From the NCBI GenBank assembly GCA_030141605.1, contig JAQGDQ010000467.1:114579-178578 (forward strand): DNA of 64,000 bases, read 5' to 3'. Of this stretch, positions 5,656 through 47,126 are shown in pieces. The position numbers and the translations under genes were made by a program. Every line of letters starts with the position of its first letter. The first letter of the stretch is position 1. The notes beneath the pieces were generated by a model, which made no database searches, was not told the DNA's origin, and was given only the letters and a program-made list of their open reading frames with translations. This stretch comes from Tubiluchus corallicola. Lineage: Eukaryota > Animalia > Priapulida.

Positions 5656-5775
5656 AAGCCTACAGCACCTGGTATTCCCAGGCAGTCACCCCTCCAAGTA
5701 CTAACCAGGCTCTACGTTGCTTAATTTCAGTGATCAGACGAAAGCAGGTATTTTCAACATCATATGGCCAGTGGT
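5656..5775 (-). pseudogene. 5S rRNA-derived copy, probably a pseudogene
   Basis: Minus strand GGCCATATGATGTTGAAAATACCTGCTTTCGTCTGATCACTGAAATTAAGCAACGTAGAGCCTGGTTAGTACTTGGAGGGGTGACTGCCTGGGAATACCAGGTGCTGTAGGCTTTTT follows the metazoan 5S pattern plus a T-run terminator, with a divergent 5' end and altered box A and box C. Confidence 0.85.
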
Positions 5776-9493: not shown

Positions 9494-10166
9494 ATGTTTT
9501 TTAAAAATGTGTGGATTGTGCTGATTTTGACGGCAATCTCAAGATCACAGAAATCTCCCTGTACACACTTGTCCAGAGACTGTGATTACCAGTATTCAAC
9601 TGTGTGTTACCTTCGCTGCTTCCTTCTGACACCCGAGTTTGACATATACAGCGTGTGTGGTGCTCTTCTACCAGACTGCAGCTATGAGACATTCGGACAG
9701 TGCATCGTCATCTGTGGGAGGCTGCAAGATGCTCAGGTATTCGCCATAGACTTGGCTATTCTGACAAACGCATTACCACTTTATACACATCAGCTAAATA
9801 TCTACAACTACCAAGACGCACAGTTGCCGCGTGGTTTCCTGCAGGGAAGAAATGTTGGCAGACTAACCGTAGCTTTTTCCAACCTCGAACAGCTAGGGGC
9901 AGGTGTCATATCTGGTAACGTATCAGACGTGTCTTTAAGGTCTAACGGCCGATTAACCACGGTTCATCCACTGGCTTTTTCTAGAATAGCTGGCTTGTCA
10001 AGCATCACATTTAGCGACTGTACAGCCCTGACCTCTGCTGACCTTGATTTGAGCAACAGTGACCGGATAGAGAGAATCGATTTTCATAAAACAGGGATAG
10101 AGACTATGAGGATGCCAATTTTGTCTCCGGAAAGACCAGCAAATAGAATAATTCTGGAAATAACAG
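9494..10166 (+). CDS. LRR-mucin exon 1: signal peptide, 8-Cys cap, LRR block 1
   Basis: ATG 9494 in AAAAATG context; LRR-like LTVAFSNLEQLGAG, VSLRSNGRLTTVHPLAFSRIAGLSSITFS; donor ACAG|GTAAAT. Confidence 0.85.
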
Positions 10167-13100
10167 GTAAATAAAGTGCGAGCTTAGCGGCAGTGAGCAG
10201 ATGGAGAGGGAAATCCGAGGCAATAAATTAATTATCATTATACATGGGTCTGATGATTAGGGGTGAGCATCGAACGCTCGAATTCGATTCGAACGAGTTT
10301 TTTTAGTTCGAACTCGATTCGAATCCAAAACTATAGATTCGAATAATTCAGCACTTTAATCACATATGTTCCTGATCACTAAAACAATTGAAACAACATG
10401 CAATTAGCATAATTTAGCTGTGATTTCTGTGCACAATTTTAAACAAATTACTAGTCGTTTCATTGCAGAACAAAATCTAGTGATACACATGATCTTTGTA
10501 AGACTAATTTTTACTGGTGGTTCGAAAACACTGAAGTTCGGTTCGATTCGAATTCGCTTTCTGGTAGAGAATGCTCACCCCTACTGATGACATATCTGAT
10601 AATGATGAGATAGGACATTAATAGTTATTTAAAATGTCGTTAAAATACCGAAGCTCTAAAGACAATTTTTAAACACCTATTGCAGTTCAAATTGTTTCTA
10701 ATTTATAGGTTGGCACCTGGTTTGTGAGATCATAATGTGAGGTAATTTTTTTGCACTTATAGATCAACCTGTTTTGTAACTGTACAAGATAATGAGATGG
10801 ACTGCGCGTTATGGACAAGCCTGTATAGCTTTTAGCTGCACAGTTATGCGAGTTAGTTGATCACAGACAATTTACCTGGTTTCACACTATACAACAGTTT
10901 CAAATTGTTATTTGTGCCTTATAATGTCTTTTCTTTTGGTTTTTCGTTATTGTTATTATTTTTGCATTGTAGGTAGTCCACTAGTTTGTAATTGTACACT
11001 TGCGTGGACAAAAGCTGTTAGCTGGAGGAGCTCTACAATTGACTGCCAGACACCACCGAGAAAGTCTTTTATCAATGAAATTACACTTGAAGAATTTGGC
11101 TGCGAAGAAATGATGGCAGACATGGCAGACACAGAGTCAACAGTGCCTGCAATGACGATGCGAACAAGCACAAATACAATGATGACCTCATCTGCAACAC
11201 CCAGAACGACTTCAATGACTACTGAAGCGTCAACCACAGACCCCATATCAATGACGCCAACATCAGCTGAATTGGCAGACATACCAAAAATGCCCACAAG
11301 TAAAACCGAAGCTGTACCAACTAGAACAGATATGACAGTTGAGCCAACAAGTGGGACTTCGATGGTGGTGTCCACGTCAATATCAACAAGCCAGTCAATG
11401 AGCGACTCTACAACGACTGAAGTGTCAACCGTGGATCCCACATTAATGGCAACAACATCAGCTGAATTGGCAGACATACCAAAAATGCCCACAAGTAAAA
11501 CCGAAGCTGTACCAACTAGAACAGATATGACAGCTGAACCAACAAGTGGGACTTCGATGGTGATGTCCACGTCAATGTCAACAAGCCAGTCAATGAGCGG
11601 CTCTGCAACGACTGAAGTGTCAACCGTGGATCCCACATTAATGACAACAACAGCAGCTGAATTGGCAGACGTACCAAAAATGCCCACAGGTGAAAGCGAA
11701 ACTGCGAAAACTACAACAGACATAACAGTTGAGCCAACAAGTGGGACTTCCATGATGATGATGTCTGCATCAATGTCAACAAGCCAGTCAATGAATGACT
11801 CTACTACGACTGAAGTGTCAACCATGGATCCCACATTAATGGCAACAACAGCAGCTGAATTGGCAGACATACCACAAATGCCCACAGGTAAAAGCGAAAC
11901 TGGGAAAACTACAACAGACATAACAGCTGAACCAACAAGTGGGACTTCCATGATGATGTCTGCATCAATGTCAACAAGCCAGTCAATGAGCGGCTCTGCA
12001 ACGACTGAAGCGTCAACCGTGGATCCCACATTAATGGCAACAACAGCAGCTGAATCTCCAGAAGTATCACAGTCACAGTCTACACATGTACCTGAATCGA
12101 TGTCAATGACTACATCATCAGTAGATGACATGACAGAATTCACAGAAGACTCACCACTGCCAACAACACATGTACCTGAATCAATGTCAATGACTACATC
12201 ATCAGTAGATGACATGACAGAATTCACAGAAGACTCACCACTGCCAACAACACATGTACCTGAATCGATGTCAATGACTACATCATCAGTAGATGACGTG
12301 ACAGAATTCACAGAAGACTCACCACTGCCAACAACAACTATAGACACAACAGCAATGCTCACAACAATGCCAGAGTCTGTTCAAATGGCAGGAATAGGAA
12401 CAACAGCAGTATTGGGGACAGTTAATAATGCAAGCGACATGGAAACTACAGCATCAGAAACAGCTACTTCCATAGTGATGATGATGCCGATATCAACAAA
12501 TCAATCACTGGCTGCATCTACAAGTATGCCAACAAATGAAACTGAAACTATTCCAGCTACAACAGACATGCCAACTGAATCAACAAGAAGGACGTCCATT
12601 ACGATGACTGAATCAACAAGTCAACCAGAGACTGAATCTACAATAATGTCCACAAAAGAAGCTGAAACAGTTCCTGCTACATCAGATGTAACAGTTGAAT
12701 CAACAAGCAGCACTTTTGGTGCATTCCCGACAAGAACAAGCCAATTAGTGGCTGTATCAGCAAGCATGTCTACAACTGAAACCGAAACCGTTCCCACTAC
12801 AGCAAACATGACAGTGGAGCAAACAAGTGGGACTTCCACAATGATGATGCCAACATCGCCGACTCAACTAGTGGGTGCATCTGAAAGTGCAACCACAAGT
12901 GAACCCGAAACTGCTGCAACAGGTGTGACAACCCAGTCAACAATTGGGACTTCGATAATGATGACGACATCATCAACTCAGTCTGTGCCTGCATCTGTGA
13001 GTGTGACTACAAGTGAAACTGAAAGTGCCCCAACTACAACAGGTATGACAGCAAGTCAAACATTCGAGCCTACTCAATCTGTTGAATCAACCACTTCTGA

Positions 13101-16100
13101 TACGATCATGGCATCAACAAGCCAATCAGTGGCTGCATCTACAGGCATGTCCACAAGTGAAACTGAAACAGTTGCTATTACAACAAATGCGACAACTCCA
13201 CCAACAAGCGAGACTTCCATGACGATGACCTCATTAACAAGTCCACAAGAGACAACAATAACGTCCAAAAATGCAAGTGAAACTGTTCCAGTTACAGCAG
13301 ATGTATCGACTGAGCCAACAAGCAGGTCATCCATGACTGTGGCAACATCACCAACTCAATCAGTTGGTGCATCTACAAATGTGACCACAGGTGAACCTGA
13401 AATCATTTCAACTACAACAGGCATGACAACAAGTCAAACATTCGAGCCTACTCAATCTGTTGAATCAACCACTTCCGATACGATCGTGGCATCTACAAGC
13501 ATGTCCACAAGTGAAACTGAAACAGTTGCGATTACAACAAATGTGACAACCCCACCAACAAGCGAGACTTCCATTACGATGACCTCATTAACAAGTCCAC
13601 AAGAGGCAACAATAGCGTCCAAAAATGTAAGTGAAACTGTTCCAATTACAGCGGATGTATCGACTGAGCCAACAAGCAGAACATCCATGACTGTGGCAAC
13701 ATCACCTACTCAATCAGTTGGTGCATCTGCAAATGTGACCACAAGTGAACCTGAAACCATTTCAACTACAACAGAGAGGACAACCCAGCCCACAAGTGGG
13801 ACATCCGAAATGATGATGACGACAACATCACCAACTCAATCAGTTGGTGCATCTACAAATGCGACCACAGGTGAACCTGAAACCATTTCAACTACAACAG
13901 AGAGGACAACCCAGACAACAAGTGGGACATCCATAATGACGATGACAACATCACCAACTCAATCAGTTGGTGCATCTGCAAATGTGACCACAGGTGAACC
14001 TGAAACCATTTCAACTACAACAGAGAGGACAACCCAGCCCACAAGTGGGACATCCAAAATGACGATGACAACATCACCAACTCAATCAGTTGGTGCATCT
14101 ACAAATGTGACCACAGGTGAACCTGAAACCATTTCAACTACAACAGAGAGGACAACAAGTCAAACATTCGAGCCTACTCAATCGTTGAATCAACCACTCG
14201 ATACGATCGTGCATCTACAAATGTCCACAAGTGAAACTGAAACAGTTGCGATTACAACAAATGTGACAACCCCACCAACAAGCGAGACTTCCATGACGAT
14301 GACCTCATTAACAAGTCCACAAGAGGCAACAATGCGTCCAAAAATGTAAGTGAAACTGTTCCAATTACAGCAGATGTACGACCGAGCCAACAAGCAGAAC
14401 ATCCATGACTGTGGCAACATCACCTACTCAATCAGTTGGTGCATCTGCAAATGTGACCACAAGTGAACCTGAAACCATTTCAACTACAACAGAGAGGACA
14501 ACCCAGCCCACAAGTGGGACATCCGAAATGATGATGACGACAACATCACCAACTCAATCAGTTGGTGCATCTACAAATGCGACCACAGGTGAACCTGAAA
14601 CCATTTCAACTACAACAGAGAGGACAACCCAGTCAACAAGTGGGACATCCATAATGACGATGACAACATCACCAACTCAATCAGTTGCTGCATCTACAAA
14701 TGTGACCATAAGTGAACCTGAAACCATTTCAACTTCAACAGAGAGGACAACCCAGCCAACAAGTGGGACATCCAAAATGATGATGACAACATCACCAACT
14801 CAATCAGTTGGTGCATCTACAAATGTGACCACAGGTGAACCTGAAATCATTTCAACTACAACAGGCATGACAACAAGTCAAACATTCGAGCCTACTCAAT
14901 CTGTTGAATCAACCACTTCCGATACGATCGTGGCATCTACAAGCATGTCCACAAGTGAAACTGAAACAGTTGCGATTACAACAAATGTGACAACCCCACC
15001 AACAAGCGAGACTTCCATTACGATGACCTCATTAACAAGTCCACAAGAGGCAACAATAGCGTCCAAAAATGTAAGTGAAACTGTTCCAATTACAGCGGAT
15101 GTATCGACTGAGCCAACAAGCAGAACATCCATGACTGTGGCAACATCACCTACTCAATCAGTTGGTGCATCTGCAAATGTGACCACAAGTGAACCTGAAA
15201 CCATTTCAACTACAACAGAGAGGACAACCCAGCCCACAAGTGGGACATCCGAAATGATGATGACGACAACATCACCAACTCAATCAGTTGGTGCATCTAC
15301 AAATGCGACCACAGGTGAACCTGAAACCATTTCAACTACAACAGAGAGGACAACCCAGTCAACAAGTGGGACATCCATAATGACGATGACAACATCACCA
15401 ACTCAATCAGTTGGTGCATCTGCAAATGTGACCACAGGTGAACCTGAAACCATTTCAACTACAACAGAGAGGACAACCCAGCCAACAAGTGGGACATCCA
15501 AAATGACGATGACAACATCACCAACTCAATCAGTTGGTGCATCTACAGATGTGACCACAGGTGAACCTGAAACCATTTCAACTACAACAGAGAGGACAAC
15601 CCAGCCAACAAGTGGGACATCCAAAATGACGATGACAACATCACCAACTCAATCAGTTGGTGCATCTACAGATGCGACCACAGGTGAACCTGAAACCATT
15701 TCAACTACAACAGAGAGGACAACCCAGCCCACAAGTGGGACATCCAAAATGACGATGACAACATCACCAACTCAATCAGTTGGTGCATCTACAAATGTGA
15801 CCACAAGTGAACCCGAAACTGTTCCAACTACAACAGAGAGGACAACCCAGCCAACAAGTGGGACATCCAAAATGACGATGACAACATCACCAACTCAATC
15901 AGTTGGTGCATCTACAGATGTGACCACAGGTGAACCTGAAACCATTTCAACTACAACAGAGAGGACAACCCAGCCAACAAGCAGAACATCCATGACTGTG
16001 GCAACATCACCAACTCAATCAGTTGGTGCATCTACAGATGTGACCACAGGTGAACCTGAAACCATTTCAACTACAACAGAGAGGACAACCCAGCCAACAA

Positions 16101-19100
16101 GCAGAACATCCATGACTGTGGCAACATCACCAACTCAATCAGTTGGTGCATCAACAGATGTGACCACAGGTGAACCTGAAACCATTTCAACTACAACAGA
16201 GAGGACAACCCAGCCAACAAGTGGGACATCCATGATGATGACGACAACATCACCAACTCAATCAGTTGCTGCATCTACAAATGTGACCATAAGTGAACCT
16301 GAAACCATTTCAACTTCAACAGAGAGGACAACCCAGCCAACAAGTGGGACATCCATGATGATGACGACAACATCACCAACTCAATCAGTTGCTGCATCTA
16401 CAAATGTGACCATAAGTGAACCTGAAACCATTTCAACTTCAACAGAGAGGACAACCCAGCCAACAAGTGGGACATCCAAAATGACGATGACAACATCACC
16501 AACTCAATCAGTTGGTGCATCTGCAAATGTGACCACAGGTGAACCTGAAACCATTTCAACTACAACAGAGAGGACAACCCAGCCAACAAGTGGGACGATG
16601 ACAACATTACCAGCTCTGTCTGCAGGTGTGACCACAAGTAAAACTGAAAGTTCTCCAACTACTACAGACGAGATAACAAGTCAAACATCCGAGCGTACTA
16701 GATCGGATGAATCAACCTCAAATACCACTACAGCAAGTACAGCATCAACGGCTACTGCACTAAAACCAACCTGTGAACACTTGACAAACAAATGTGATTT
16801 GCAAACTTCTTCTGCCTTGTGCTTTGCTGAGTGTGGTCTACACCAAACGGCTGCTGGTAGAATAGAGGCCCAGTATTGTGGACCATTTTTAGGGCCTTTG
16901 AATGACTGTAATTACGCACCATTTAGTCCATGTCAGATAACTTGTGGCCTTTCTAACTCTGTACTTCATACAGAATCGATCTTGGGAGTCATTTCCAAGT
17001 ATCTACCAGATCCTCTTGCAGCATTTGTTATTTATAAGTACAATAGTACACGGCTGCCTTTAAACTTTCTCATTGGCAAAAACATTGTCGGTTTAAAATT
17101 TAGCAACACAGGACTTGAACATCTAGGCGAAAGTGTCATTCATGGTGATGTACAACTACTGTTTTTTGATGGCAACTTTGGCTTGACGTCTATCAATCCA
17201 AAAGCGTTTTCAAGACTTGAAGCTCTCAAGAGGATCAGCATTACCAACAGTGCGTCATTAGTAAAGATCGGTTTGGACTTGACCAATAATCCTGTTATTG
17301 AAAAAATTACAATCCGTCACACAAACATATCGAAGATGGAGATGCCAATTTTACATCCAGAAACATCTCCAAATAAAATTGCCCTAACGTTAACAGGTGA
17401 GTTTTCTTTTCTTTAAATATGTCTTTAACATTTCGCTCCCGTCAAACAAGTATATGAAGTTCTTGTCACTCCTAGAAGCATCTGGAACGTTCCTTCACCG
17501 ACAATAATTACCTCACGAGCTACAGTACAAGTTCTTATTATTTGGTTGTAATTAATCACTAATTGGCTGTCAGTATAACTGTTTATCAGAAACCTATAAT
17601 TGGCTCTTATTGGAAACGAAGATTTTTCAAACGTATAATCCTTTACTGTAACCAACTTGCATCTTTGCAGATGCAGTTACCATGCTCATACATTTGTAAA
17701 GTCTCCCATGATTAGTTCTCGTAACATCTTGGGTAAGTAGGCCTATTCTTCAAAAGTCAACCACATGCACTCCGATTCGGTACTACTCGGATGAAAATGC
17801 AAAATTAGATACAATAATAACATCACAAATTATGCACAACATTTCTGTCTTTTGCTAGTTTCATGCTGTCGTTAATTGTATTTAATTAATAAGTTAATAT
17901 TCATGTTTTAGGTGTTTGGAGAATATAGTAATTTATGGAAAATCTCTTGTCATCTAACTGTAAAAGAGACCTTTTTTGTTATTTTTCTAGATAATCCATT
18001 CATATGTGATTGTGATCTGGCGTGGACCAAGTCTAGAAACTGGTTGGTTTCTGCAATTGACTGTGCAGAGCCACCTAGGAAACATGGTGTGAACGAAATA
18101 ACGTTGGCAGAATTTGGGTGTGACGGAATGATAAAAGACGTCTTAGCAATATTTCCAAATCAGACTTCTGAGCCAACACGAGGAAGCACCATGATGACAC
18201 AAACCACAGGAACAACTACAGCAACTACTGTTACGGCATCCATGAGTGTAGCACAAGGTGCACCAATGTCGAAACCGATATGCGAACATTTGACGGATCA
18301 GTGTGACTTAATGGCTGCCTCTTCCCTGTGCTTTGCTGAGTGTGGCTTACAATTGAAATCTAGCGGTAGAATAGAACCTCAGTATTGTGGACCATTTTTA
18401 GGCGCCTCGTACGATTGTAATTATGAATCATTTAGTCCTTGCAAGATAACTTGTGGCCTACCTAACAACAGAGTGCTTTCAGCATCAAACTTGGATGCCA
18501 TGACCAAGTATCTGCCAGACTCTCTTGCGGTGTTTGTTATTTTTAACTACCAAAGTACACGGCTACCTTTACAATTTCTTGATGGCAAAAATATAGTCGG
18601 GTTAACAATTGCTAATAGTGGACTTGAATTTCTTGGAGAAAATGACATTCATGGTGATATCAAATTGCTTTTTCTTACGGGAAACTCCAACTTGACGTCC
18701 ATCCACCCGCGTGCATTTTCTCAACTTGGAGGTCTTACGAGACTGAGCATTACCAACAGTGTATCATTAGTAAGAGCCAACTTGGATTTAACTGACAACC
18801 CAGCTATTGAAATCATCGATATTCGTGGCACAATGATATCGAGAATGACGATGCCACTTTTCCATCCAGATACTTCATCGGCCAGAACAGCACTCACATT
18901 AACAGGTACGTTTAAAGATTTTGTCTTACTTCTGCAAAGCAATGCCATGTTCAGATGGTGCAACATTTTTGTTGCATCAAATTACATCAATCTTTAATTT
19001 CGTTATTAGTATCAAATTAGTTCTCAGTCTCGACACCAATGTTAAGTAGCCTAATGGTCACCTGTAATCTATAAGTCTCTAGTACAAATCCAGGTTTGAT

Positions 19101-22100
19101 CACTCTCAAAATTCAGCAATCGTGGTTTCAATATTCCTTGACAACTACACTGAATGACAGTGATAGCTGCTTAAAGTGTTAGATTCTTTAGATGTGTGAG
19201 TTTCAATAGTGAAAACGTTATGCTGTATGCAATCTCACCCTCCTCGTTTTTTAACAAGTAACTGAGCAGACTTTTTCTAGTTAGCTGAGTTAAAGATATA
19301 TAGATTTTTTCGAAATTTCGGTCAAACAGCCTGCAGAAAAAACGTTCTAGCGGCGCCCGGTGGGACTTTCGGAAGGAGATATATAGCTCTTTAGAAAGAG
19401 GAAGAACAGGGCTACACGATAATGTAGGCTATATGTTAGGATAGGTCCACTGAGAGGAGTGAGGACGAGTTAATTTGATGTTCTATTTTTGGCAATTTTC
19501 GCTTAGAAAACTGCTGACGCAAAGCCATTGTTGTGACGTCATCCATTATACTCTGTCTATATTATAAATTTATAGCTGTAATTCAGTAAAAGCTGCCGCT
19601 GCTGCCTTTGCGTTAGATAAACACACAAACACTAGGTAGAATGTTCGCGTATTTTTGATTATGAATATTTTTATATGCAAAATTTTTTGCGGGGCCTTTG
19701 CTAGTTTTATATTGATTCTGGCAATTTGAAATGCAATGTCATCTATGAAAATATATCATTTCTCTTTTTCCTTAAATAACCTGCACGAGATCACTAGTTG
19801 GATGGCGAAGGAATGAAAAACAGTTGAAAACAATACTTAATGAGTTGATGCTGTCATTAAAGAAGCAACGAAACAATTTTATGACTGACATGACTCGTAC
19901 GTAAATCCACATATTGGTCAGCAGGGACAGATTGATCGAATGACGCCTAAGTGTCCAGGGTGTGCCCAACTCTTAATGAGCCGTTTTATTATTCTGTTAA
20001 ATGTGACTTGGTTGCAAATATGCTAACATTGACACAAATAATACAATTTTCTTCTCTCATTCAACATGCATTTACTAATATCGCAACTGCTGCATGTATT
20101 TATTCGAAACTAATACAATTTCCTTCTCTCATTCAACACGCATTTACTAATATCGCAACTGCTGCATGTATTTATTCGAAACTAATACAATTTTCTTCTC
20201 TCATTCAACACGCATTTACTAATATCGCAACTGCTGCATGTATTTATTCGAAACTAATACAATTTTCTTCTCTCATTCAACACGCATTTACTAATATCGC
20301 AACTGCTGCATGTATTTATTCGAAACTAATACAATTTTCTTCTCTCATTCAACACGCATTTACTAATATCGCAAATGCTGCATGTATTTATTCGAAAATA
20401 AAGGAAAACATGTGCAACTTAATTATCTCACCTACGTAGTCTATAAAAAAGACTAAAGTGCACGAAATACGATTATTTCCACGGTATTGACCTAGACTCA
20501 AACGGGAGACCTTGCAACACTTCTCCCTCTAATCCGTCCTGAAAATACCTGCAATCCCTGTTAACAATTTTCTTTCAATTCTCCCTTGGCAGTCAGTCCT
20601 ACCTGCTATCGATTAATTAATGTTTATAATACTTGTCAACAATAATGGTTCCAATCCTTGTATGGAGTAAAAGTGTAGATAATTTTGAATTGCTTTTGTT
20701 TTTGTAGATAATCCATTCATATGTGATTGTGATTTGTCATGGACCAAGTTTAGAAGCTGGTTAGTTTCTGAGATTGACTGTGCAGAGCCACCTAGGAAAC
20801 ATGGTGTGAATGACATAACGTTGGAAGAATTTGGGTGTGATCGAATGTCATCAGAAGTCACAGCAGCCTCTGCAAGTCCAGTTTCTGGGCCTACAGGAGC
20901 AGTAACTGAAACAGTGAGAATCAGTGAAGCAATGCCTACAGTTTCTTTGGAATCTTCGGGAGAAACAACCACTGCGGCTGCTGCAAAACCAGTATGTGAA
21001 CACTTGACAGACCAATGCAATTTACAGTTTGCTTTTAGCCCTTGTTATGCTGAATGTGGCCTACGCTTAATTGCAACAGGAAATATAGCGCCTCAGTACT
21101 GTGGACCATTTCTAGGCCCGCTAAATGACTGCAATTATGAACAAGTTGGTCCATGTAAGATAACCTGTGGGTTACTGAACTCTGGCACAATTACGGAATC
21201 GACTTTACAAATGATATCCAATTATCTACCAGATTCTCTTGCTGTGCTTGTTATTAATAATTATGAAAGTGCCCGATTGCCTCCACGGTTTCTTGATGGC
21301 AAAAATATAGTCGGGTTAACAATTGCCAATACTGAACTTGAGTCTCTAGGAGAAAACGCAATTTATGGTGGCATAAAATTTCTCTTTCTTACGGGCAACT
21401 CCAACTTGATGTCCATCCACCCTCGTGCATTTTCGCAACTTGGAGGTCTTACGAGAATGAGCATTACCAACAGTGTATCATTGGTAAGAGCCAACTTGGA
21501 TTTAACTGACAACCCAGCTATTGAAAAGATCGACATTCGTGGCTCAATGATATCGAGGATGTCGATGCCACTCTTGCATCCAGACACATTAGCAAGCAGA
21601 ACAGCACTGACATTAACAGGTAAGTTTGTTCATCATATCAGTAGGATCAGTTTTCAATGTTGATACCAATGCTAGCTGAGTAGTCTAGTGGTAATTGCAG
21701 CAGACTTGTATCTCAAAGTCTATGGTTCAACATAAACCAACTTTTTCAGTTTCTTTCATTTTGGAAAAGTTTGGCTCCAAAATTCAGTAAATGTCTATTG
21801 ATGTTTGATCACAGCTGCATAGAATATTGCATAATGATGTGTCGCAGCAGTAAATAATAATTACTACTACGTAGAGTGTTCTATCCTCTGTTTCTGCATA
21901 TGAGTTTCAGTAATGGAAAATGGACCTTTACTTTATCTTAAATAGCCAGTTCAAGTTGACTGTATTGTTCTGCATCTGAATCTATCATGGCGCCATCAAT
22001 ACACTGCCACTGTCTGACGTAACAGGACATGTTTCACAGGTGACAGTCACACTGTTAAATGCTGGTGGAATGAACTGAGTAGAGAATTGTACTAGAAGTA

Positions 22101-25100
22101 TCAGATAGGCAGCTTTAAAAAGAAAAGAAACAAAAAGTTTACATGCATGCAGGCCCCTATATAAATCCTTTTTGGCAAATTGGAAGTTACTGCAAAGTAG
22201 CCGTAAAGGTATGCATTTAGTATGATCGGACTTAAAATGCTTGTGACGGGAACACAAAAGAATTTCCTTCATAGCATATGGTGTTCTCAGAAATCTTTAT
22301 TTCTGTATAAATAAAAAAATGAAAATAATAAATTTGACTACTTTTCGCTGCTTACAAATGTATAATGATCTAATTATTATAATTCAAGATAATAAAGTAA
22401 ATATTACTCACATCGTGCGGCTATAATAACTTAATAGATCCTTGGAACGTCATACTGGTTTACAGCAAATCAGGTAAAGACGCTACAAATAATCACTTGA
22501 ACATTTATCTGAACATTATTTAACGTTTGCTGAGGCTTCTCTGAGCGTGTTTAGTGAGGCTCAACCTAATTTACAACTTCACAGGTAAAATTACAGGTAA
22601 GTTCACATAGGTGCTGCCACCTACATGTTAAGGCCAGAAACTGACCTTAACAATGCTGAACAGACTAATGTGTGAGAAAATAGTTAATTTGGTTTTTGTA
22701 TTTTCACAGATAATCCATTCATATGCGATTGTAATCTGGCATGGACCAAGTCAAGGAACTGGTTAGTTTCTGCGATTGACTGTGCAGAGCCACCTAGGAA
22801 ACACGGTGTGAATGGCATAACATTGGAAGAATTCGGGTGTGATCGAATGGTATCAGAAGTCACAACAATCTCTACAAATCGAATTGCTGAGCCTATAACA
22901 ACAGTAACTGCTACAGTGAGACCCAGTGAAACAATGTCTACAGTATCCATGGAATCTTCAGGTGCAACAACCAGCAATGCTGTTATAAAACCAGGATGTG
23001 AACATTTGACAGACCAATGTAATTTACAGCTTGTGTTCAGCCCTTGTAATGTTGAATGTGGGCTGCGCTTAACTGCTAGTGGGAGTATAGCGCCTCGCTA
23101 CTGTGGACCATTTCTAGGCCCCCTAAGTGACTGTAATTATGAACAATTCGGCCCTTGTAAGATAACCTGTGGTTTGCCCAACTCTGGCGCAATTACGGAA
23201 TCGACTTTGCAAGTCGTATCCAATCATCTACCAGATTCTCTTGCTGTGCTTGTTATTAACAATTATGAAAGTACCAAACTGCCTCCACGGTTTCTTGATG
23301 GCAAAGAGGTAGTCGGTTTAACAATTGCTAATACTGCACTTGAATCTCTGGGAGAAAATGCTATTTATGGAGACATTAAATTTCTCTTTTTGTATGGTAA
23401 CTCCAACTTGATGTCCATCCACCCGCGTGCATTTTCGCAACTTGGAGGTCTTACGAGAATGAGCATTACCAACAGTGTATCATTGGTAAGAGCCAACTTG
23501 GATTTAACTGACAACCCAGCTATTGAAAAGATCGACATTCGTGGCTCAATGATGTCGAGGATGTCGATGCCACTCTTGCATCCAGACACATTAGCAAGCA
23601 GAACAGCACTGATATTAACAGGTAAGCTTGTTCGTCGTAACAGCATGAAAAATTTTCGATCTTGACACTGATACAGAGTAGTCTAGTGGTCATGGTATTA
23701 GACTTGCAACTCAAAGTCTTTGATTCAGCTTAAACCTGGATCAGTCTCGACTTTTTTCTATTAAGTTTTTTAAAGCACAACTGGACCCAATCTTTAACTG
23801 TAGGTCAAAACACACTACTCTTGAAAATATTGAAAGGAAACATACTATTTTTTTCAAAAATGACGTACGTGAAAGAATTATTTCCACACAAACACAATTT
23901 CACATGGGCGCTACTAGTTCTTCACTGTTTGCATTTCGCCACTAAGTAAGACGGGCATTAGCACATGCATTTTTAAAGTGCATTGCACAAAAAGCAGGTG
24001 CTGTACCTAACAGTTGAGATGTGTTAGTACAGTGGTAAATTTGAAATTTGAATTTTTATCTTAAAACTTGCCTAGATTTAATACAAAAAACCAAATATTT
24101 TCCAGTATAAACTGCAGGTCAAAACACACTACTCTTCAAAATATTGAAAGGAAACATACTATTTTTTTCAAAAATGGCGCACGTGAAAGAATTATTTCCA
24201 CACAAACACAATTTCACGTGCGCGCTACTAGTTCTTCACTGTTACATGCATTTCGCCACTTAGTAAGACGGGCATTAGCACCTGCATTTTTAAAATGCAT
24301 TGCGCAAAAAACAGGTGCTGTACCTAACAGTTGAGATGTGTTAGTGTCGGACAAACTACACACGCTCAACAGTTCATGCGTGAGTACAGTGGTAAATTTG
24401 AAATTTAAATTTTTATCTTAAAACTTGCCTAGTTTTAGTACAACAAACCAAGTGTTTTCCAGTAGCACTGTACTTTAATTTTCGCTTTCGCAGACACGTG
24501 CAATACGCTAGTGGAATATTTTTGATGTTGAAAATTATATTAGCTTGTGATGTCATCAATAGTTGGGTTCGCCCGCCGTTAATTAAGTTTTTTCTACTTT
24601 GTAATTATCAGAAACGCTTTTGCAGTATTAATTGTGTTAAAATGCATGCTTTTTAGCGGACTTGAAAATGGGATAGTATATGAAAAATCATCCTGTCTTT
24701 CGTCAAATGTGTGTTCATAATTCAAGTCACTGAATGTTGTATAACAATGTGTGGCAGTAATAGCTAATAGCAGTAGTACTATCCGCCTGTAAAAACTGCG
24801 ACAAAACCTTCTGAAATGAGTAAGTCCACAAAGAAATGGTCAGACCCGCTCTAATGTATGGGCTGGAAACTACAGACACATAAGTAGCATGACTGCTGCA
24901 CTGAACACTGAGAGTGGGAGTGACTAGCAAGGAAAAACAGTCAGTATATATAGGTATAGGTGACCTATGCAGACTTGCACAGGCTTCACAATAACCATTA
25001 CTTTTAGAGGAGAGGACCAGTGAATATGCATTCACTGGACCATACAATTATACTGAAAGTAAGTCAGCTGGTAGAATGTAACAGGATTAGCACATAGATG

Positions 25101-26594
25101 GCAGCACCTAATTACAATGTACAATTCCAACTTCCACACGAGTCATTTGAAGAAGTGGGAAAGGTCATCGTGTATTGCATTAGGGACATCTGTTTTGGCA
25201 TAATTGAATTTTTTAATTATGCCTGCATTTTTTGAAGATGCTGTCTGTTGTTTTGACAAGCAAAAATGTCTCTTTTTCAGACGATACATAGACATTTCAC
25301 ATAATGATTTAGACCAGTAAAATTCGTGTAATCACAACACAGTTTATGCACACATGATATGTTCGAATCCAAGTGGTTGTTACTCGTGTCACTACTCGAG
25401 TGAAAATTGAACCAAATTTCGGGAACAGGGTTAAGAACAGTGGCGGCTTGTGTATAGGCACTGCGAAACTGCAGCACCTCCTATTTTCACTCGATATTAT
25501 CGCCTATTTTCAACATAATGAGTCTTTTTTCTTTAATTCTTTCTTTATACTTATACTTTATACTTATACTTGTTCTTGTACAGAACCAAAGCACGTGACG
25601 GCACTGTGCGATTCACAGCTCCAGCAACATGATGTTTGGCTGTTGTGCGCATGCGACCATCCGCACATGTTTTAGTTAAGATACGTCAGATAGAGAGAAA
25701 ACATGTAGTGTTGACCTAGAAGAAAATTATTAATCTTTTCATGCAAAGTAAAACAAGAAGAATAAAGTTTATTTCATCGTCATCATCTCATCATCATCAT
25801 CATTCTCATCCTCATCCTCACCCTCCTCTTCATCATCATCTCATCATCATCATCATCCTCATTCTCATCATCATCCTCACCCTCCTCCTTATGATAAACA
25901 GAAAAGTGTTTATTAAACTACAGAAAATATGAGTAGCAAAACTGCTGCACTGAACATTGAGCAAAAACTAGAAAGCAAAAAACAGTCAGTAAAACCTGTT
26001 TCACAGTCAGTATACAGGTATAGGACTTGACCTATGCAGATTTGCACAGGCTTCACAACAACCATTACTTTTAAATAGGGAGAGGGCTAGTGTGTATGCA
26101 TTCACTGGACCATACAATTAAACTGAGGGTAAGTCAGCTGGTAGAATGTAACAGGATCAGCCCATAGATGGCAGCACCTAATTACAATGTACAATTCCAA
26201 ATTCCACAGGCCTTGCTTCATCATCACACTGCTAATGCCAATTGAACGAACTGAGCTGAGAATTGCACTGGAAGGGGCTTTGATGCAACTTTAAAACAGA
26301 GACATGAATCAAAACAGTCACATGCGGGCCCCTATCTAAATCCTTTTTCAGCAGTCGCTGCAAAGGAGCTTTAAATGTATATGTTATGATCAGACTCAAA
26401 ACACAGAACGGATAATCTAGGAAACACAATTAAAATTGTATTTTTGTATTTTCGCAGATAATCCATTCATATGCGATTGCGATTTGGCGTGGACCAAGTC
26501 TAGAAACTGGTTGGTTTCTGAGATTGACTGTACAGAGCCACCTAGGAAGCACGGTGTGAATGAGATTACTTTGGACGAGTTTGGGTGTTTTTAA
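9494..26594 (+). CDS. Predicted secreted multi-module LRR protein with mucin-like spacer (6 exons, about 3,320 aa)
   Basis: Exons 9494-10166, 10973-17396, 17991-18905, 20708-21619, 22710-23621, 26458-26594; all introns GT-AG and phase 1; signal peptide-like MFFKNVWIVLILTAISRS; five 8-Cys cap + LRR blocks each completed by (D/G)(N/S)P(F/L)xCxCxLxW...C...C (LRRCT-like) on the next exon; TAA at 26592-26594; no TM segment. Exon 2 has a net frameshift near 14180-14380. Confidence 0.85.
10258..10583. mobile_element. hAT-like MITE family C in intron 1
   Basis: TAGGGGTGAGCAT...ATGCTCACCCCTA; TSD CTGATGAT/CTGATGAC. Confidence 0.85.
10973..17396 (+). CDS. LRR-mucin exon 2 (6.4 kb): LRRCT 1, Thr/Ser/Met/Pro/Glu-rich repeats, 8-Cys cap and LRR block 2
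   Basis: Acceptor TTGTAG|GT; ORFs 10912-14349 and 14405-17416 join across clustered 1-2 bp deletions; donor ACAG|GTGAGT. Confidence 0.8.
17991..18905 (+). CDS. LRR-mucin exon 3 (915 nt): LRRCT, linker, 8-Cys cap, LRR block 3
   Basis: TTTCTAG|ATAATCCA...ACAG|GTACGT; length divisible by 3. Confidence 0.9.
20038..20398. repeat. Tandem repeat, 72-bp unit, 5 copies (intron 3)
   Basis: AATACAATTTTCTTCTCTCATTCAACACGCATTTACTAATATCGC repeats every 72 bp. Confidence 0.95.
20708..21619 (+). CDS. LRR-mucin exon 4 (912 nt): module 4
   Basis: TTTGTAG|ATAATCCA...ACAG|GTAAGT. Confidence 0.9.
22710..23621 (+). CDS. LRR-mucin exon 5 (912 nt): module 5
   Basis: TTCACAG|ATAATCCA...ACAG|GTAAGC. Confidence 0.9.
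23795..24465. repeat. Local tandem duplication of about 315 bp in intron 5
   Basis: AGGTCAAAACACACTACTCTT...AAAACTTGCCTAG at about 23802-24075 and 24116-24433. Confidence 0.85.
24880..25135 (+). repeat. Dispersed repeat family E, unclassified
   Basis: Direct copy at about 25935-26207 and inverted copy at about 37020-37320; shared core GTAAGTCAGCTGGTAGAATGTAACAGGAT...GGCAGCACCTAATTACAATGTACAATTC. Confidence 0.8.
25774..25890. repeat. (CAT/CCT)n low-complexity tract
   Basis: Directly visible trinucleotide repeat. Confidence 0.9.
26458..26594 (+). CDS. LRR-mucin exon 6: terminal LRRCT (absent from the ORF track)
   Basis: TTCGCAG|ATAATCCA; translates (D)NPFICDCDLAWTKSRNWLVSEIDCTEPPRKHGVNEITLDEFGCF*. 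Confidence 0.9.
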
Positions 26595-26690
26595 TTGTTC
26601 AAAGCATTCCATTTGACATGACGTCAATGACAAAGTAATGGAAGAGACATTGTAGCCACGCTTTTGAGCAGTTTTTTGAGAGACATTATA

Positions 26691-27079
26691 TAGGCTTTAC
26701 AAGTCAAATGTAGACACAGGAAAGTTCAAATGTGACTTAGGTAAGTCAAATGTAGACATAGCAATTTCAAATGTGTTTTGGTAACTCAAATGTGACTTAG
26801 GTAAGTCAAATGTAGGGATAGGAATTATTAAATTGAGATGAAAGAAGATTAAACTAAACATGCTTAAGCTTTACCACCTATTCACATTTGAGATACCAAT
26901 GTCACATTTGACTTGACATGTGTCTATATTTGATTTACCAAAAGCACTTAAGATTTGTTGAAAATCATTGTTAACACATTTGAACTACCTAAGTCTACAT
27001 TTGAGCTACCAAGACACATTTGAATTACCTAAATCTACATTTGAGTTAACGCAGGTCTACATTTGACATGTAAAACGTA
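26691..27079. mobile_element. MITE with arrays of inverted TCAAATGT/ACATTTGA subrepeats
   Basis: TTTACAAGTCAAATGTAGAC...GTCTACATTTGACATGTAAA; TA-rich flanks; about 100 bp after the stop codon. Confidence 0.65.
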
Positions 27080-27480
27080 TAATATAGGTTAAGTTCAATA
27101 AATCAAGAAAGCGAACGTTGGCGATGTATACAACCCTTAAAAGTTAGACCAACAGGTTAATCTATAAGTACAGGAACTTAACAAACTGACAACTGAGCCA
27201 GTAAGCTTTCACAAACATGAGTTAAACCATTAATTAATGTTTCAGTGAGTCATAAATTATAAGTAAACCACCAAGTGTAGCTGAACTCAGGCAATGAATC
27301 GGCTTCCGGGTCCAATTGTTGCCATTCAACTTTTCTAATAAACCAGGCACCTGATTGCCCGCCCCACTGAGTTGAACAAATTTCAATAATCTTACTATTT
27401 TGTCACGTATGTCATCTAAAATCATGTAAAGCGTTTCAATACCAAATCTGTATGAACGAAAGTGCAGATAACGTCATCAC

Positions 27481-27912
27481 TAGGGGTGAGCATCGAACGT
27501 TCGAGTTCGAACATTCGAATCGAAATCGAACGCTCGAATTCGATTCGAACGAGGTTTTTAGGTCGAACTCGATTCAAATCCAAAACTATAGATTCGAATA
27601 ATTCAGCACTTCAATCACATATGTTCCTGATCATTAAAACGATTGAAGCATCATGCAATTAGCATAATTTAGCTGTGATTTCTGCGCACAACAAATTACT
27701 AGTCGTTTTATTGCAGAACAAAATCTAGTGATATGCATGATCTTTGCAAGACTAATTTTTACTGGGGGTTCGAAAACTTGTTCGAAAATCGTTCAATCTC
27801 ATTTCGAATTCTGTTCGAATTCGAAACACTGAAGTTCGGTTCGATTCGAATTCGAAAGTCACAAATTCGGTTCGTTTCGAATTCGCTTTCTGGTAGAAAA
27901 TGTTCACCCCTA
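27481..27912. mobile_element. hAT-like MITE family C
   Basis: TAGGGGTGAGCAT...ATGTTCACCCCTA; perfect 8-bp TSD GTCATCAC. Confidence 0.92.
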
Positions 27913-28724
27913 GTCATCACTGCCCTGGCTTGGCGTGCGATTTAGACCTAAAATTTTTGGAGCAAATGGCTGGCTTCCTATTGTTCCATAATACATTTCG
28001 TCACATTTTATGGCTTTGCTTGTAAGTTACGTATCATATTTTTTTGATTTTGTGAAATGGATTGATGACACTGGCGACACAATTTGACGACTTTGCATAC
28101 CGGAAGATCACTTATCGTATCACCAAATGAAAGCCCACATACAACTTCGCATTCGTCGTAATACAAAAGTAGTCAAGTACATTGTAGTCACCTTACATAA
28201 TACTTCAAAGTGCAGGCCTTTTTTTGATCTTTTCGGCGGGCCAAAATATGAATTTTTATAACAAAAATGTCCGAAACGCTCTTACATTGGCCTAAAAGAT
28301 GATTCCTGAGAGTTTGGTAGCTGTATCTAGTCAGTGCACTTTTTTACCTAATAGCCTATGGCCGTAAACTACAAAACATCTACCTGGAATGCACGAATGT
28401 AAGCATGAAAAATAACAGTATAAATGCATCTTAAAACATACAACAAAGATTAAACAGACAACTGCCTGATCCTAAGCAACACGACTCTTCTAAGCCAACT
28501 GATAACACTTACCAATTTTTCTACGTATATATTATACAGCATAAATTATACCGTTGTGATTCTAAATTTGAAATTATATTTGTATTTTTATATTTTTACT
28601 GTGATACCATGCACACGTTTCGCTTCTATTATTCTTCTTACACTGAGTATTATTTTCGTACAAAATACAAAATTTTTTTTATAACGCACTTGCAAAGTTA
28701 TTTTCAGTTAGAGTAAAATTAATT

Positions 28725-33986: not shown

Positions 33987-36900
33987 ATGGCATCTGAGTA
34001 TGACGAACCCATTTCTGATCAGGAAAAAGTGAGTTTCAAAGTATTTTCCCTGTGCAATTGGTGTTATTATTTAGCGTAGTAAAGTTTAAAACGCCCACAT
34101 GTGCATAAAGTGCAGTTGATTCTTAAAACTTGTTTATGTAAATACTGTAAGCCGTAATTAAGTATGTTTTATGCGAAACCAGTGTCTCACCTTTTATTTC
34201 TGTCCAATCTGTTTGATAACTTATTCATTTGTGTACACTCAGTAGCGACTAATTAAGTAATGTTTTGGGCGCTATTACACTTTCGCACCTCTTAGTTTTT
34301 TCTAGGTTATTACTCGTTTCTAGGCTCGTAGGTCATTAGTCAATTATTCTCACGTCATCAGTGAATGTTTCCAATAATCTCGTGATAATTTAGTCATATA
34401 TTTAGTGTATAATTACCAATAATTACGTTGATTCGTAGTTCTACATCTATACAGTTCGTATCGCCATTATGTTTGTGTGTAGTCACGTGACAAATTTCGT
34501 GCTAGTGTATGCATTATCAGGGCCTAACTTAAAAGGTACGTGACACACTTTTATCTTAACTGCATTTACGAAATAAAGAAAAAACCTTTACTTTTATAAT
34601 TTAATAGTACTACAGTAATAAATAAAATTAATGATAAATAACTGTAGTCGTCTAAAATAATTTCCTCGTATATGCCAGCTTGGGTCTGACTATACAGTGA
34701 AGAAGAAACAAAAAATTCGGGAAGTCTTTTGAAGAAAAGATAATGACTGACACAGGATTGTAATAGCATTTTAGGTTCTTATACTCATTATCACCATCAC
34801 TATTGCACTGTTATTTTTATCATCATCGTCATCGCTACCACTATTCTGATGCCATCATCATTATGCATACATGTACAACTTAGAGTAGCTTATACAATTT
34901 TGGCCCATGAGTACGGGGGGGGGGGGGGGCGGTGATGTAGTGGGAAGCACATTTACAAAGCTGAATGTAATGACAATAATCATGACGACAACGTAACGAC
35001 AAGTCCGTACACACATACATACATAAATACACACATACATACATAAATACGCACACACATACATGTATACATACATACATACACACATGCATATACATAC
35101 GTATAATTATAATAATATTATTAATACATTTTTACCGCACGTGTAATCAAATGTGTACTCAAGTTAAGAATCACAACGTAAGTCCATAGCGCTTCTGAAA
35201 TTTATCAAACCAGCCCTTGCTGGCACTGAATTGGCCTGATCTGGTGGGAGAAGCATTATGTCAATGGTCCTGCTTCATCATCATCCACCAAATAAATACA
35301 CTATTTACTGTAAATGGTAATTTTTTATGATTTATAATATTCTTTTAATGTTAGAATTAATATTTTTAATATTTTTTTATACATTTTGTGATTTTTTTAT
35401 GCAAAATTCATCAAATCTATACATTATTGTACAATACGTACTACGCATGTGCAAAAATACTTTAGACGGAGTACCGCAAAAACCCGCGAAACAGGAAGTC
35501 CGCGATAAACAAACAGCAAAGCAGCGAGGGAACACCGTTATACGATACAAACTCCCGTGGCTGCAACTCATAATAATCATAAATTATGTAAAGAAACTAA
35601 AAATACAGGTTAAGGGCCACATACGTCACTGCGCGAGAGCGATTGCGCATTAGTGGTGTAAACACAGTTATTCACGTGGAGCTTCTTGCGTGTTGGTGAC
35701 GGTAAGTAATATATGATTTTAATCTGGAATTGTAAGGCCTAAAAACCTATAATATTATGGGAATATGGTGTATATTACGCCTGTTGATCCGCTTTCTGGC
35801 CTGCAGGCGTGAAAACAAACAATAGGCCAGAAAGAAGTAGGAGGTGCGAAAGTGTAATAGCGCCATGTTTTGTTATTAATTTTTACATAAAATCAGCTTT
35901 CAGCTTATCAGTAGTGCCTAATGTGAGTGTTCAGAGCATTGTATTTTTATGTAAATAATCGACTGAAAGTAAATTTTTACTTGATCGTTAATGCGACTGA
36001 TGATTCATGTCTAACAGTCTTGTTGGGCAACTGTTTTAGTATTAGTAAAATAATTAACCATGCATACGTTTTGTCAAAGTCGTTTTGGAAATCACAATTC
36101 ATTACTTATGGCCTAAGATCAGTTCAAGATATGCCACTCTATGAAGCACATGCTGCAGAGTGTAGAATTAAGGCGAGTGATTAGTAATTATAAAACTTTT
36201 AATTTTACAATGTCTATACATATTGCCAGTGCTGTATTGGTATGTATCTTAGCCACGTTTAGATACATACATGCTCATTCTACGGGGTAAACAGTCAAGA
36301 TCAGTACGGCAAATGAAACTGCCCAACAACTACTCATATGAAGAACAGGTGTGAGGTGACTTTGCTGTAAATCACATAGTAATGTAGAAAGAAATGTATC
36401 AGTGATCAATGCCTTTGGCTTTCTTTTATAATTTTTAGGTTCGAATAGCATCTGATTTCATTCTGCATGCACCACCAGGAGAGTTCAATGAAGTTTTCAA
36501 TGGTAAGTCTATGTTTATTTAAAAACCGCCATTATCAGTACTTTTCTTTGCAAAACTGTACACTACATAGTCAAAACACAATTTCACGTCTGCAACCCAA
36601 CACCCAATCCCAGTATGCACCGCTGTTTTACCAAAAACACATTAATGATCTTATTGACAGTGGAAAGTAATTTATACTTCTGCTTAGTTAGCGAAGCGTG
36701 TGCTGCAGATGCTTGATTATTATTTAAAATTTTTCAATGTTATCTAAACTTGTTTCAAATGCCTTACCGTTAAAATGGATGTACCTAATGGTCATCACAG
36801 GAGTTTAAATTTACAAATTTCATGCAGTGTTACAGCTAATGTAAGTCCTGTATGCACTAACACAGCATGTAAGTGCTATGAAATTTCAGCTTTGAATTTC

Positions 36901-47057: not shown

Positions 47058-47126
<69 letters not shown>

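What the first reader, a model, noticed from the sequence alone, without database searches (positions are those of the whole stretch)
9494..26594. Giant secreted protein: one LRR head on a ~1,900-aa mucin tether joined to four more LRR modules
Seen: splicing six exons gives signal peptide, module 1, a mucin-like spacer, then modules 2-5 joined by short Thr/Ser linkers, ending on an LRRCT with no TM helix, TIR domain or hydrophobic GPI-type tail. Module 1 is far more divergent than modules 2-5. The ORF track splits the gene into six pieces and misses the last exon. Known: extracellular LRR proteins with LRRCT caps (Slit, Toll ectodomains, VLRs, GPIb-alpha with its mucin stalk) are binding scaffolds. 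Inference: I recognise no family with this dumbbell layout; it could be a multivalent cross-linker in mucus, adhesive or matrix, or a secreted microbe-binding protein.
Basis: partly seen in the sequence, partly recalled or inferred. Interest (0 to 1): 0.85.

Follow-up and report, generated by a model that had tools for sequence, protein, structure and literature searches.

The report
Giant mucin-tethered five-module LRR protein
An animal, likely a priapulid worm, has a gene for a predicted secreted protein of about 3,300 residues in which one leucine-rich-repeat module is joined by a very long, likely sugar-coated spacer to four more, so it likely bridges two different partners in the body-surface coat; its splicing is predicted from DNA only, and a frame break in the spacer is likely an assembly error.

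Summary
Real gene, new layout, familiar parts. Six GT-AG exons (9494-26594, +) encode a predicted signal peptide and five ~255-aa capped LRR modules; a ~1,890-aa Thr/Ser tether follows module 1; no TM or GPI-type tail. Contigs of public runs carry those bases at about three-copy depth, so it is likely an assembly error. Modules 2-5 show dN/dS 0.22-0.27. The module belongs to an unnamed family: 14 whole-module relatives among 150 listed hits, mostly single-module proteins, 10 with a hydrophobic GPI-type tail after the LRRCT; one has a Thr stalk, two are tandem. Fold: Slit-domain-like. The neighbouring CAPZA gene points to a priapulid host. Best reading: an anchor-free, two-ended tether in cuticle or mucus matrix (0.45); microbe trap 0.25. 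All internal exons can be skipped in frame, so the dumbbell may be one isoform. The scan had not noted it on other DNA. New variant of the eLRRon class; interest 0.38.

The parts
9494..10166 (+). Exon 1: predicted signal peptide (codons 1-18) and module 1 N-part (two tandem 4-Cys cap repeats, six LRR strands)
   Evidence: Pfam LRR_8 E 0.0073, below cut-off
9494..9547 (+). Predicted signal peptide: short basic n-region, 10-residue hydrophobic core, small residues at -3/-1
   Evidence: hydropathy; SignalP not available
10973..17396 (+). Exon 2: LRRCT of module 1 (10975-11103), mucin tether (11104-16762), module 2 N-part (16763-17395)
11104..16762 (+). Thr/Ser-rich tether, about 1,889 aa, built of 195-, 84-, 120- and 123-bp tandem units; no Cys, 28 N-glycosylation sequons, net charge about -135
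14183..14379 (+). Frameshift zone: six 1-2 nt deletions (8 nt) in one repeat copy; premature stop at 14347-14349; likely an assembly error
17991..18905 (+). Exon 3 (915 nt, phase 1-1): LRRCT 2, 50-aa Thr/Ser linker, module 3 N-part
20708..21619 (+). Exon 4 (912 nt, phase 1-1): LRRCT 3, 49-aa linker, module 4 N-part
22710..23621 (+). Exon 5 (912 nt, phase 1-1): LRRCT 4, 49-aa linker, module 5 N-part
26458..26594 (+). Exon 6 coding part: LRRCT 5 and TAA stop one residue after the last Cys; no stalk, no hydrophobic tail
26827..27342 (+). Candidate poly(A) signals (ATTAAA 26827, 26848; AATAAA 27097, 27337); untested

Best explanation
The gene is predicted to encode a secreted, anchor-free glycoprotein that likely works as a two-ended tether in the apical matrix (cuticle, precuticle or mucus coat) of what is likely a priapulid worm: module 1 would bind one partner, modules 2-5 would bind a different, repetitive partner with avidity, and the likely O-glycosylated tether would hold them up to about half a micrometre apart. 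Shown: exon layout, five capped LRR modules, Cys-free Thr/Ser tether, no anchor, purifying selection on modules 2-5, a different chemistry of the predicted concave face in module 1 versus modules 3-5. Inferred: origin from a family of GPI-type one-module LRR proteins (signal, cap, LRRs | intron | LRRCT, stalk, hydrophobic tail) by tandem repetition of an LRRCT-stalk-module exon, growth of the first stalk by internal repeats and loss of the tail; glycosylation; location; both partners.
For: Whole-module relative P0006 (pLDDT 87.6) overlays the whole of Slit2 D2, Z 17.0, rmsd 3.2, 193 of 207 residues, tied with TSHR/FSHR/SALM3; its LRRCT is 56% identical to exon 6. Family: 14 of 150 listed hits match along the module; the other 136 score at most 35 bits on the module profile. 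10 of the 14 have a hydrophobic tail after the LRRCT, P0014 has a Thr stalk before it, P0002 and P0120 are tandem-module. Selection: dN/dS 0.22-0.27 in 6 of 6 pairs of modules 2-5, no stops. Two kinds of face: predicted concave positions are identical in 4-6 of 29 between module 1 and modules 2-5 but 24-27 of 29 among modules 3-5; mean hydropathy of the LRR1-3 face is +0.3 to +0.8 in modules 3-5, -0.2 in module 2, -1.8 in module 1 and negative (-0.3 to -2.9) in 13 of 13 relatives aligned. Frame: contigs of X1 and X2 carry all 8 missing bases, at depth 561.6 in X1 against 134-207 for eight single-copy contigs, i.e. 2.7-4.2 copies where the window has three. Host: CAPZA next door is 75% identical to Priapulus caudatus against 55-69% for the other 8 of 9 hits. 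Precedent: LRR-only proteins (LET-4, EGG-6, TM-less SYM-1) and mucins are nematode precuticle components (PMC11304992, PMC7712855, passages read). Length scale: 20-23 glycosylated residues span about 7 nm in DMBT1 (PMC7043408, passage), which gives about 0.6 micrometre; the recalled 0.25 nm per residue gives 0.47.
Against: No ligand, tissue or transcript is known. The comparison face versus rest of the LRR is biased, because the rest includes the buried core, and exposed positions saturate first; module 1 is as far from modules 2-5 (35%) as from some database relatives (up to 38-41%), so its different face may be drift. The relatives have very varied faces, which suits recognition of foreign ligands as well as matrix building. 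The tether has no Cys and no polymerising domain, so the protein could not form a covalent gel by itself. The intact contig carries the letters of the two flanking repeat copies at three sites, and contig depth is only a rough guide to copy number. Host assignment rests on one gene and nine hits.
Confidence: 0.45

Rival explanations
1. Secreted microbe trap: modules 2-5 bind repetitive microbial surfaces with avidity, as DMBT1/SALSA does with SRCR domains strung on short glycosylated linkers, while module 1 or the tether holds the molecule in mucus.
For: Beads-on-a-string tail with 49-50 aa Thr/Ser linkers resembles the DMBT1 layout, where avidity comes from repeats (PMC7043408, passages). An amphioxus capped LRR-only protein binds Gram-positive bacteria through its concave face (PMC4731796, passages). 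The relatives have a VLR-like layout and diverse faces.
Against: No sign of diversifying selection among modules 2-5 (dN/dS 0.22-0.27; faces of modules 3-5 nearly identical). Their face is small and hydrophobic, not acidic like the amphioxus site. Homogenised modules suit one constant ligand, which may still be microbial.
Confidence: 0.25
2. The dumbbell is only one, perhaps minor, isoform: exons 2-5 are cassettes, and the main products are short secreted proteins with one to four modules (exon 1 + exon 6 = 269 aa, the family's usual size; exon 2 skipped = 1,182 aa).
For: All internal exons are phase 1-1 and multiples of three once the 8 nt are counted; the LRRCTs of modules 2-5 are 87-92% identical in DNA and so interchangeable. 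An unreviewed note reports mutually exclusive exon arrays elsewhere in this genome (e1-10418142; not tested).
Against: All donors and acceptors are close to consensus; symmetric exons follow from how the gene was duplicated and do not show skipping; both arms of exon 2 (1,069 and 1,005 codons) are free of stops.
Confidence: 0.17
3. The frameshift is real: this allele makes a 1,349-aa protein (module 1 plus half the tether) or is a decaying allele, and modules 2-5 are no longer translated.
For: The assembled sequence says so; the broken copy also has private substitutions, and no laid contig reproduces its exact 5' junction, so the intact contig may come from the two flanking copies only.
Against: Six separate 1-2 nt deletions in 200 bp of one repeat copy, none elsewhere, is the pattern of an unpolished long read (own knowledge); 0 of the 2 contigs that cover the zone show the deletions; depth fits three intact copies; modules 2-5 have no stops and dN/dS about 0.25.
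Confidence: 0.08
4. The protein is membrane-anchored after all through an unseen 3' exon, or the window merges two neighbouring family genes.
For: 10 of 14 relatives end in a hydrophobic tail; module 1 is not closer to modules 2-5 than to some relatives and the tree is unresolved.
Against: In-frame TAA right after LRRCT 5; the two other frames also stop before the first consensus-like donor at 26732-26741; no further LRRCT exon in the window; modules 2-5 have no signal peptide of their own; all five share the doubled cap; relative P0002 also ends shortly after its LRRCT without a tail.
Confidence: 0.05

Closest known systems
eLRRon / LRR_Only class (Dolan et al. 2007, PMC2235866; C. elegans LET-4, EGG-6, SYM-1: PMC11304992, PMC7712855; passages read)
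   Same: Secretory protein with capped extracellular LRRs and no other recognised domain; the class includes secreted two-domain members (Lrrc17, fly Halfway) and precuticle components.
   Different: Five capped modules and a ~1,900-aa tether; no entry in the passages of Table 1 that I saw has that layout (largest 1,316 aa). No sequence link to the nematode proteins was tested.
Slit LRR domains D1-D4 (PDB 2v9s, 2wfh, 1w8a, 2v70)
   Same: Tandem, separately capped LRR domains of the same size; best structural match of a whole module (Z 17.0, tied).
   Different: No EGF, laminin-G or cystine-knot domains (Slit layout recalled; Pfam finds none); 12-19% identity only; linkers are mucin-like.
Variable lymphocyte receptors and amphioxus VLR-like Bf66946 (PMC4731796, passages read)
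   Same: The relatives have the same order: signal, cap, LRRs, LRRCT, Thr-rich stalk, hydrophobic tail.
   Different: Repeats here are irregular (22-26 aa), the cap is doubled, five modules lie in one chain, no tail.
DMBT1/SALSA (PMC7043408, passages read)
   Same: Secreted; repeated binding domains on short glycosylated linkers give avidity. A 'works like' analogue of modules 2-5.
   Different: SRCR, CUB and ZP domains instead of LRR; no giant central tether.
GPIb-alpha, Nogo receptor, connectin; Leishmania PSA (PMC2235866, PMC2584048, passages read)
   Same: LRR head, in GPIb-alpha (stalk recalled) and PSA with a Thr/Ser stalk; PSA has both GPI-anchored and secreted members, like this family.
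   Different: One LRR domain and a membrane anchor at the far end; here the far end is four more LRR modules.
Unnamed module family found here (P0001-P0006, P0009, P0014, P0017, P0020, P0030, P0035, P0120, P0134)
   Same: Same cap, six LRR strands and LRRCT; 22-41% identity to the window's modules.
   Different: One or two modules seen, single cap, mostly hydrophobic tail, 139-387 aa; all 14 are unnamed single-member Logan records.

Membership tests
eLRRon / LRR_Only class | Secretory signal peptide | tested here: met
   Hydropathy only (9-residue windows reach 2.8); SignalP not available
eLRRon / LRR_Only class | Extracellular-type LRRs with Cys caps | tested here: met
   Pfam LRR_8 below cut-off in 5 of 5 module N-parts; folds match capped LRR domains; Pfam gave no LRRCT hit on exon 6, so the LRRCT rests on motif
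eLRRon / LRR_Only class | No other recognisable domain | tested here: met
   Pfam on all coding pieces: nothing but LRR below E 0.05
Slit | Tandem capped LRR domains | tested here: met
   Five modules; fold match to Slit2 D2
Slit | EGF repeats, laminin-G and cystine knot after the LRR domains (recalled) | tested here: not met
   Frame ends at LRRCT 5; Pfam finds none
Toll / TLR | Transmembrane helix and TIR domain (definition in PMC8609888, passages) | tested here: not met
   Max 19-residue hydropathy 1.36; stop after LRRCT
VLR / VLR-like | Regular 24-aa LRRV repeats, one LRR domain, Thr/Pro stalk | tested here: not met
   Repeat spacing 23, 22, 25, 24, 26; five domains
VLR / VLR-like | Somatic assembly from flanking cassettes (recalled) | not testable with these tools
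   No extra module pieces in the window; no genome held
GPIb-alpha / NgR / connectin type | C-terminal TM helix or GPI signal | tested here: not met
   Last 30 residues peak at -0.13 against 1.75-2.66 in 11 of 14 relatives; no GPI predictor available
Gel-forming mucins (MUC2/MUC5 type) | Long Thr/Ser/Pro repeat domain | tested here: met
   44-50% Ser+Thr, 7% Pro over ~1,890 aa
Gel-forming mucins (MUC2/MUC5 type) | vWD/C8/TIL and cystine-knot polymerising domains (recalled) | tested here: not met
   Pfam none; no Cys in the tether
DMBT1 / SRCR agglutinins | SRCR, CUB, ZP domains | tested here: not met
   Pfam none; LRR fold instead
Unnamed GPI-type LRR module family (this study) | Whole-module sequence match (cap, six strands, LRRCT) | tested here: met
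   E 3e-27 to 8e-11; alignment; LRRCT 56%
Any of the above | Expression, glycosylation, ligand | not testable with these tools
   Needs RNA, proteomics, binding assays

The most novel reading that the evidence does not exclude
Priapulid-like worms have their own undescribed repertoire of VLR-shaped, GPI-type LRR proteins with varied binding faces, and this gene is its secreted, multivalent form: a half-micrometre 'fishing line' with one anchor module and four catch modules, whose reach and valency are set by in-frame exon skipping.
Probability: 0.15. Interest if true: 0.7.

Novelty: new variant of a known kind. Interest (0 to 1): 0.38.

Why it matters
It shows how a small, likely GPI-anchored LRR protein can become a giant secreted two-ended tether through repetition of one symmetric exon, growth of a stalk and loss of the anchor. 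The surface-matrix and innate-immune proteins of priapulids are little described in the library searched, so the gene and its unnamed family give concrete candidates to test. Each ingredient has precedent, so a specialist would find it curious rather than startling.

Tried and rejected
No whole genome is held, so paralogues could not be counted. Word-indexed homologue search with exon 3: none of 1,256 candidates passed; with the 17-row alignment only 2 of 5,303, both already in it; multi-module longer forms were not searched by that tool, only by the all-length profile search, of which 150 of 2,757 hits were listed. ESM Atlas gave generic LRR clusters only. PDB sequence search: best E 0.017. 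Foldseek on module 3: no match at E 0.001, all top rows LRR or unrelated. Sequencing runs: no RNA holder listed; no intron-skipping joint among the 15 of 358 joints shown. One 152-nt contig of X6 (RNA is a guess) matches 63 of 68 nt of an LRRCT, and X5 and X3 contigs match exons at about 85-92%: hints of paralogues or a related species, not proof of expression. Homodimer prediction of module 3 N-part: no verdict, score 0.00, alignment unused, LRRCT absent. Homology of the short linkers to the tether: not significant (9, 72 and 37 of 100 codon shuffles scored as high), so 'tether grew from the same linker' is unproven. Tree of 5 modules and 14 relatives: unresolved, one clade neither shown nor rejected (p-AU 0.27). 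The doubled cap is not resolved in the model (pLDDT 34-67). No furin site or RGD found. Paper searches without a description of this layout or family: (listings only unless named); the library lacks most subscription journals, and I read no supplements (Additional File 3 of PMC2235866 lists all eLRR layouts and may bear on novelty). The SYM-1 Thr-rich region and the LRR-plus-repeat layout of Leishmania proteophosphoglycan are recalled leads that the searches did not confirm, so they are not used.


Full report
1. The observation. All five introns have CAG|GT donors and pyrimidine-rich AG acceptors, all are phase 1, and all fall at the same point of the module, just before the LRRCT. Each internal exon therefore reads LRRCT of one module, Thr/Ser linker, N-part of the next. 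tblastn finds five N-parts and five LRRCTs in the window and no more. Module 1 is 35% identical to the others, which are 58-88% identical among themselves. The tether (11104-16762) is 44-50% Ser+Thr, has no Cys, 28 sequons and a net charge near -135, and is built of 195-, 84-, 120- and 123-bp tandem units. No stretch is hydrophobic enough for a TM helix and the C-terminus is polar.

2. A correction. As assembled, the splice is 9,973 nt and stops at codon 1350. One of three near-identical ~390-nt tether units lacks 8 nt in six small deletions between 14183 and 14379. In the two runs whose contigs cover that zone (X1, X2; one sample), the contig has all 8 nt. It also has the letters of the two flanking copies at three sites, so presence alone does not prove that the middle copy is intact. 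Depth helps, roughly: 561.6 against 134-207 for eight single-copy contigs of the same run is 2.7-4.2 copies, and the window has three. I put the chance of an assembly error at about 0.9. The intact product would be 3,326 aa. By the same rough measure the 123-bp unit has 21-32 copies in X1 against 11-15 in the window, so the tether may be longer, or the unit may occur elsewhere too. Modules 2-5 are under purifying selection: dN/dS 0.22-0.27 in all six pairs, no stops. The 3' half of the LRR is much more alike among modules 3-5 (dS 0.05-0.23) than the cap (dS 0.46-2.2), which suggests gene conversion. Introns 4 and 5 share 72-76% identical stretches, supporting tandem duplication of intron plus exon.

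3. What a module is. Pfam LRR_8 scores below cut-off in all five N-parts (E 5e-5 to 7e-3) and nothing else is found. The N-terminal Cys cluster is doubled: two repeats of a four-Cys motif, clearest in module 1, where the aligned relatives have one cluster. Modules 2-5 each have 12 Cys.

4. Relatives. A profile of the five N-parts against 1.84 billion representatives gave 2,757 hits at E 0.001; of the 150 listed, 14 match along the module and 136 are long proteins that score at most 35 bits on a whole-module profile (13 of the 14 were in that profile, and P0003, left out, scored 100 bits). All 14 are unnamed single-member Logan records, so their hosts are unknown. Most read signal, cap, LRRs, LRRCT, short stalk, hydrophobic tail: 10 of 14 have such a tail after the LRRCT; P0014 has a Thr-rich stalk of about 70 aa before it; P0002 and P0120 have at least two modules, and P0002 ends without a tail; P0005 breaks off where the window's intron lies. 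The model of P0006 (pLDDT 87.6) overlays all of Slit2 D2 including both caps (Z 17.0, rmsd 3.2, 193 of 207; tied with TSHR, FSHR, SALM3), and Foldseek ranks Nogo receptor and LINGO-1 first. So stalks, tandem modules and probably anchor loss each occur in the family; the window's gene pushes all three to an extreme. A tree does not resolve the order of events.

5. Host. The next gene downstream is CAPZA (eight exon hits, 33987-49777). Summed identity is 75% to Priapulus caudatus and 55-69% to the other eight hits. The host is likely a priapulid, a moulting, sediment-dwelling worm (own knowledge). An unreviewed note on this genome says the same (e1-10583081).

6. How it most likely works. Secretion and O-glycosylation are inferred from the signal peptide and composition. 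A glycosylated 20-23 aa linker spans about 7 nm in DMBT1 (PMC7043408, passage); scaled, the tether would reach about 0.5-0.6 micrometre and each short linker about 15 nm. LRR proteins usually bind through the concave face (established; shown for amphioxus Bf66946, PMC4731796, passages). That face is nearly the same in modules 3-5 (24-27 of 29 positions) and unusually hydrophobic, while module 1's face is polar like those of all 13 relatives aligned and shares only 4-6 of 29 positions with the tail modules. The control is imperfect, since exposed positions diverge fastest. Still, the simplest reading is two specificities: one monovalent head, one tetravalent tail. With no anchor and no polymerising domain, the protein would be held in place by what it binds. 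In nematodes LRR-only proteins, including TM-less SYM-1, and mucins are precuticle components (PMC11304992, PMC7712855, passages), so I favour a bridging role in the apical matrix (0.45). The microbe-trap reading is close behind (0.25) and differs only in the tail's ligand. Because exons 2-5 can each be skipped in frame, the dumbbell may be one isoform among several (0.17). A real frameshift (0.08) and a hidden anchor or two genes (0.05) are less likely.

7. Comparison with what is known. It meets the broad eLRRon/LRR_Only definition (PMC2235866, PMC11304992, passages). It fails membership of Slit, Toll/TLR (PMC8609888, passages), VLR, GPIb-alpha-type receptors, gel-forming mucins and DMBT1, though it works like Slit in its tandem capped domains, like DMBT1 in its tail, and like GPIb-alpha or Leishmania PSA (PMC2584048, passages) in head-on-stalk design. 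No description of this layout or of the module family turned up in the paper searches, which miss most subscription journals and all supplements; the scan's own notes hold nothing like it.

8. Verdict. A real, selected gene with a new arrangement of familiar parts, in an unnamed family from a little-studied phylum. New variant of a known kind; interest 0.38. Splicing, expression and ligands are untested.

Noticed in passing
window 33987-49777 (+): F-actin capping protein alpha (CAPZA) gene, eight exon hits; best match Priapulus caudatus.
   Followed up: yes
window 5657-5775 (-): Single 5S rRNA match, Rfam 78.5 bits, full length; gene or pseudogene not tested.
   Followed up: partly
window 53993-57010 (-): Open 1,005-codon frame that looks by eye like a LINE endonuclease-reverse transcriptase; not scanned.
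   Followed up: no
window 61855-62079 (+): Fragment of a rhodopsin-family GPCR (7tm_1 E 4.5e-5, below cut-off).
   Followed up: partly
window ~10260-10590, ~1775-2145, ~27480-27915: Copies of a small inverted-repeat element rich in TTCGAA words, one inside intron 1.
   Followed up: partly
window 26686-27080: Foldback element with 20-21 bp internal repeats 90 bp after the stop codon; holds two consensus-like splice donors (26741, 26801).
   Followed up: partly
window 19050-19965, 22100-22700, 23640-25750: Introns 3-5 hold very high-copy repeats (summed depth 1e4-1e6 in X1 against about 200 for single copy).
   Followed up: no
window 40532-42015 and 43103-44829: 14-bp satellite (105 copies) and 104-bp/31-bp tandem arrays inside CAPZA introns.
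   Followed up: no
window 11104-16762: The tether is rich in Met (117 of 1,820 codons) and poor in ACG (35 of 549 Thr codons); could be CpG decay of Thr codons or a function; untested.
   Followed up: partly
P0001-P0006, P0009, P0014, P0017, P0020, P0030, P0035, P0120, P0134: An unnamed family of small LRR proteins, mostly with GPI-type tails, 21-43% identical to each other with very varied concave faces; worth a look as a recognition repertoire.
   Followed up: partly
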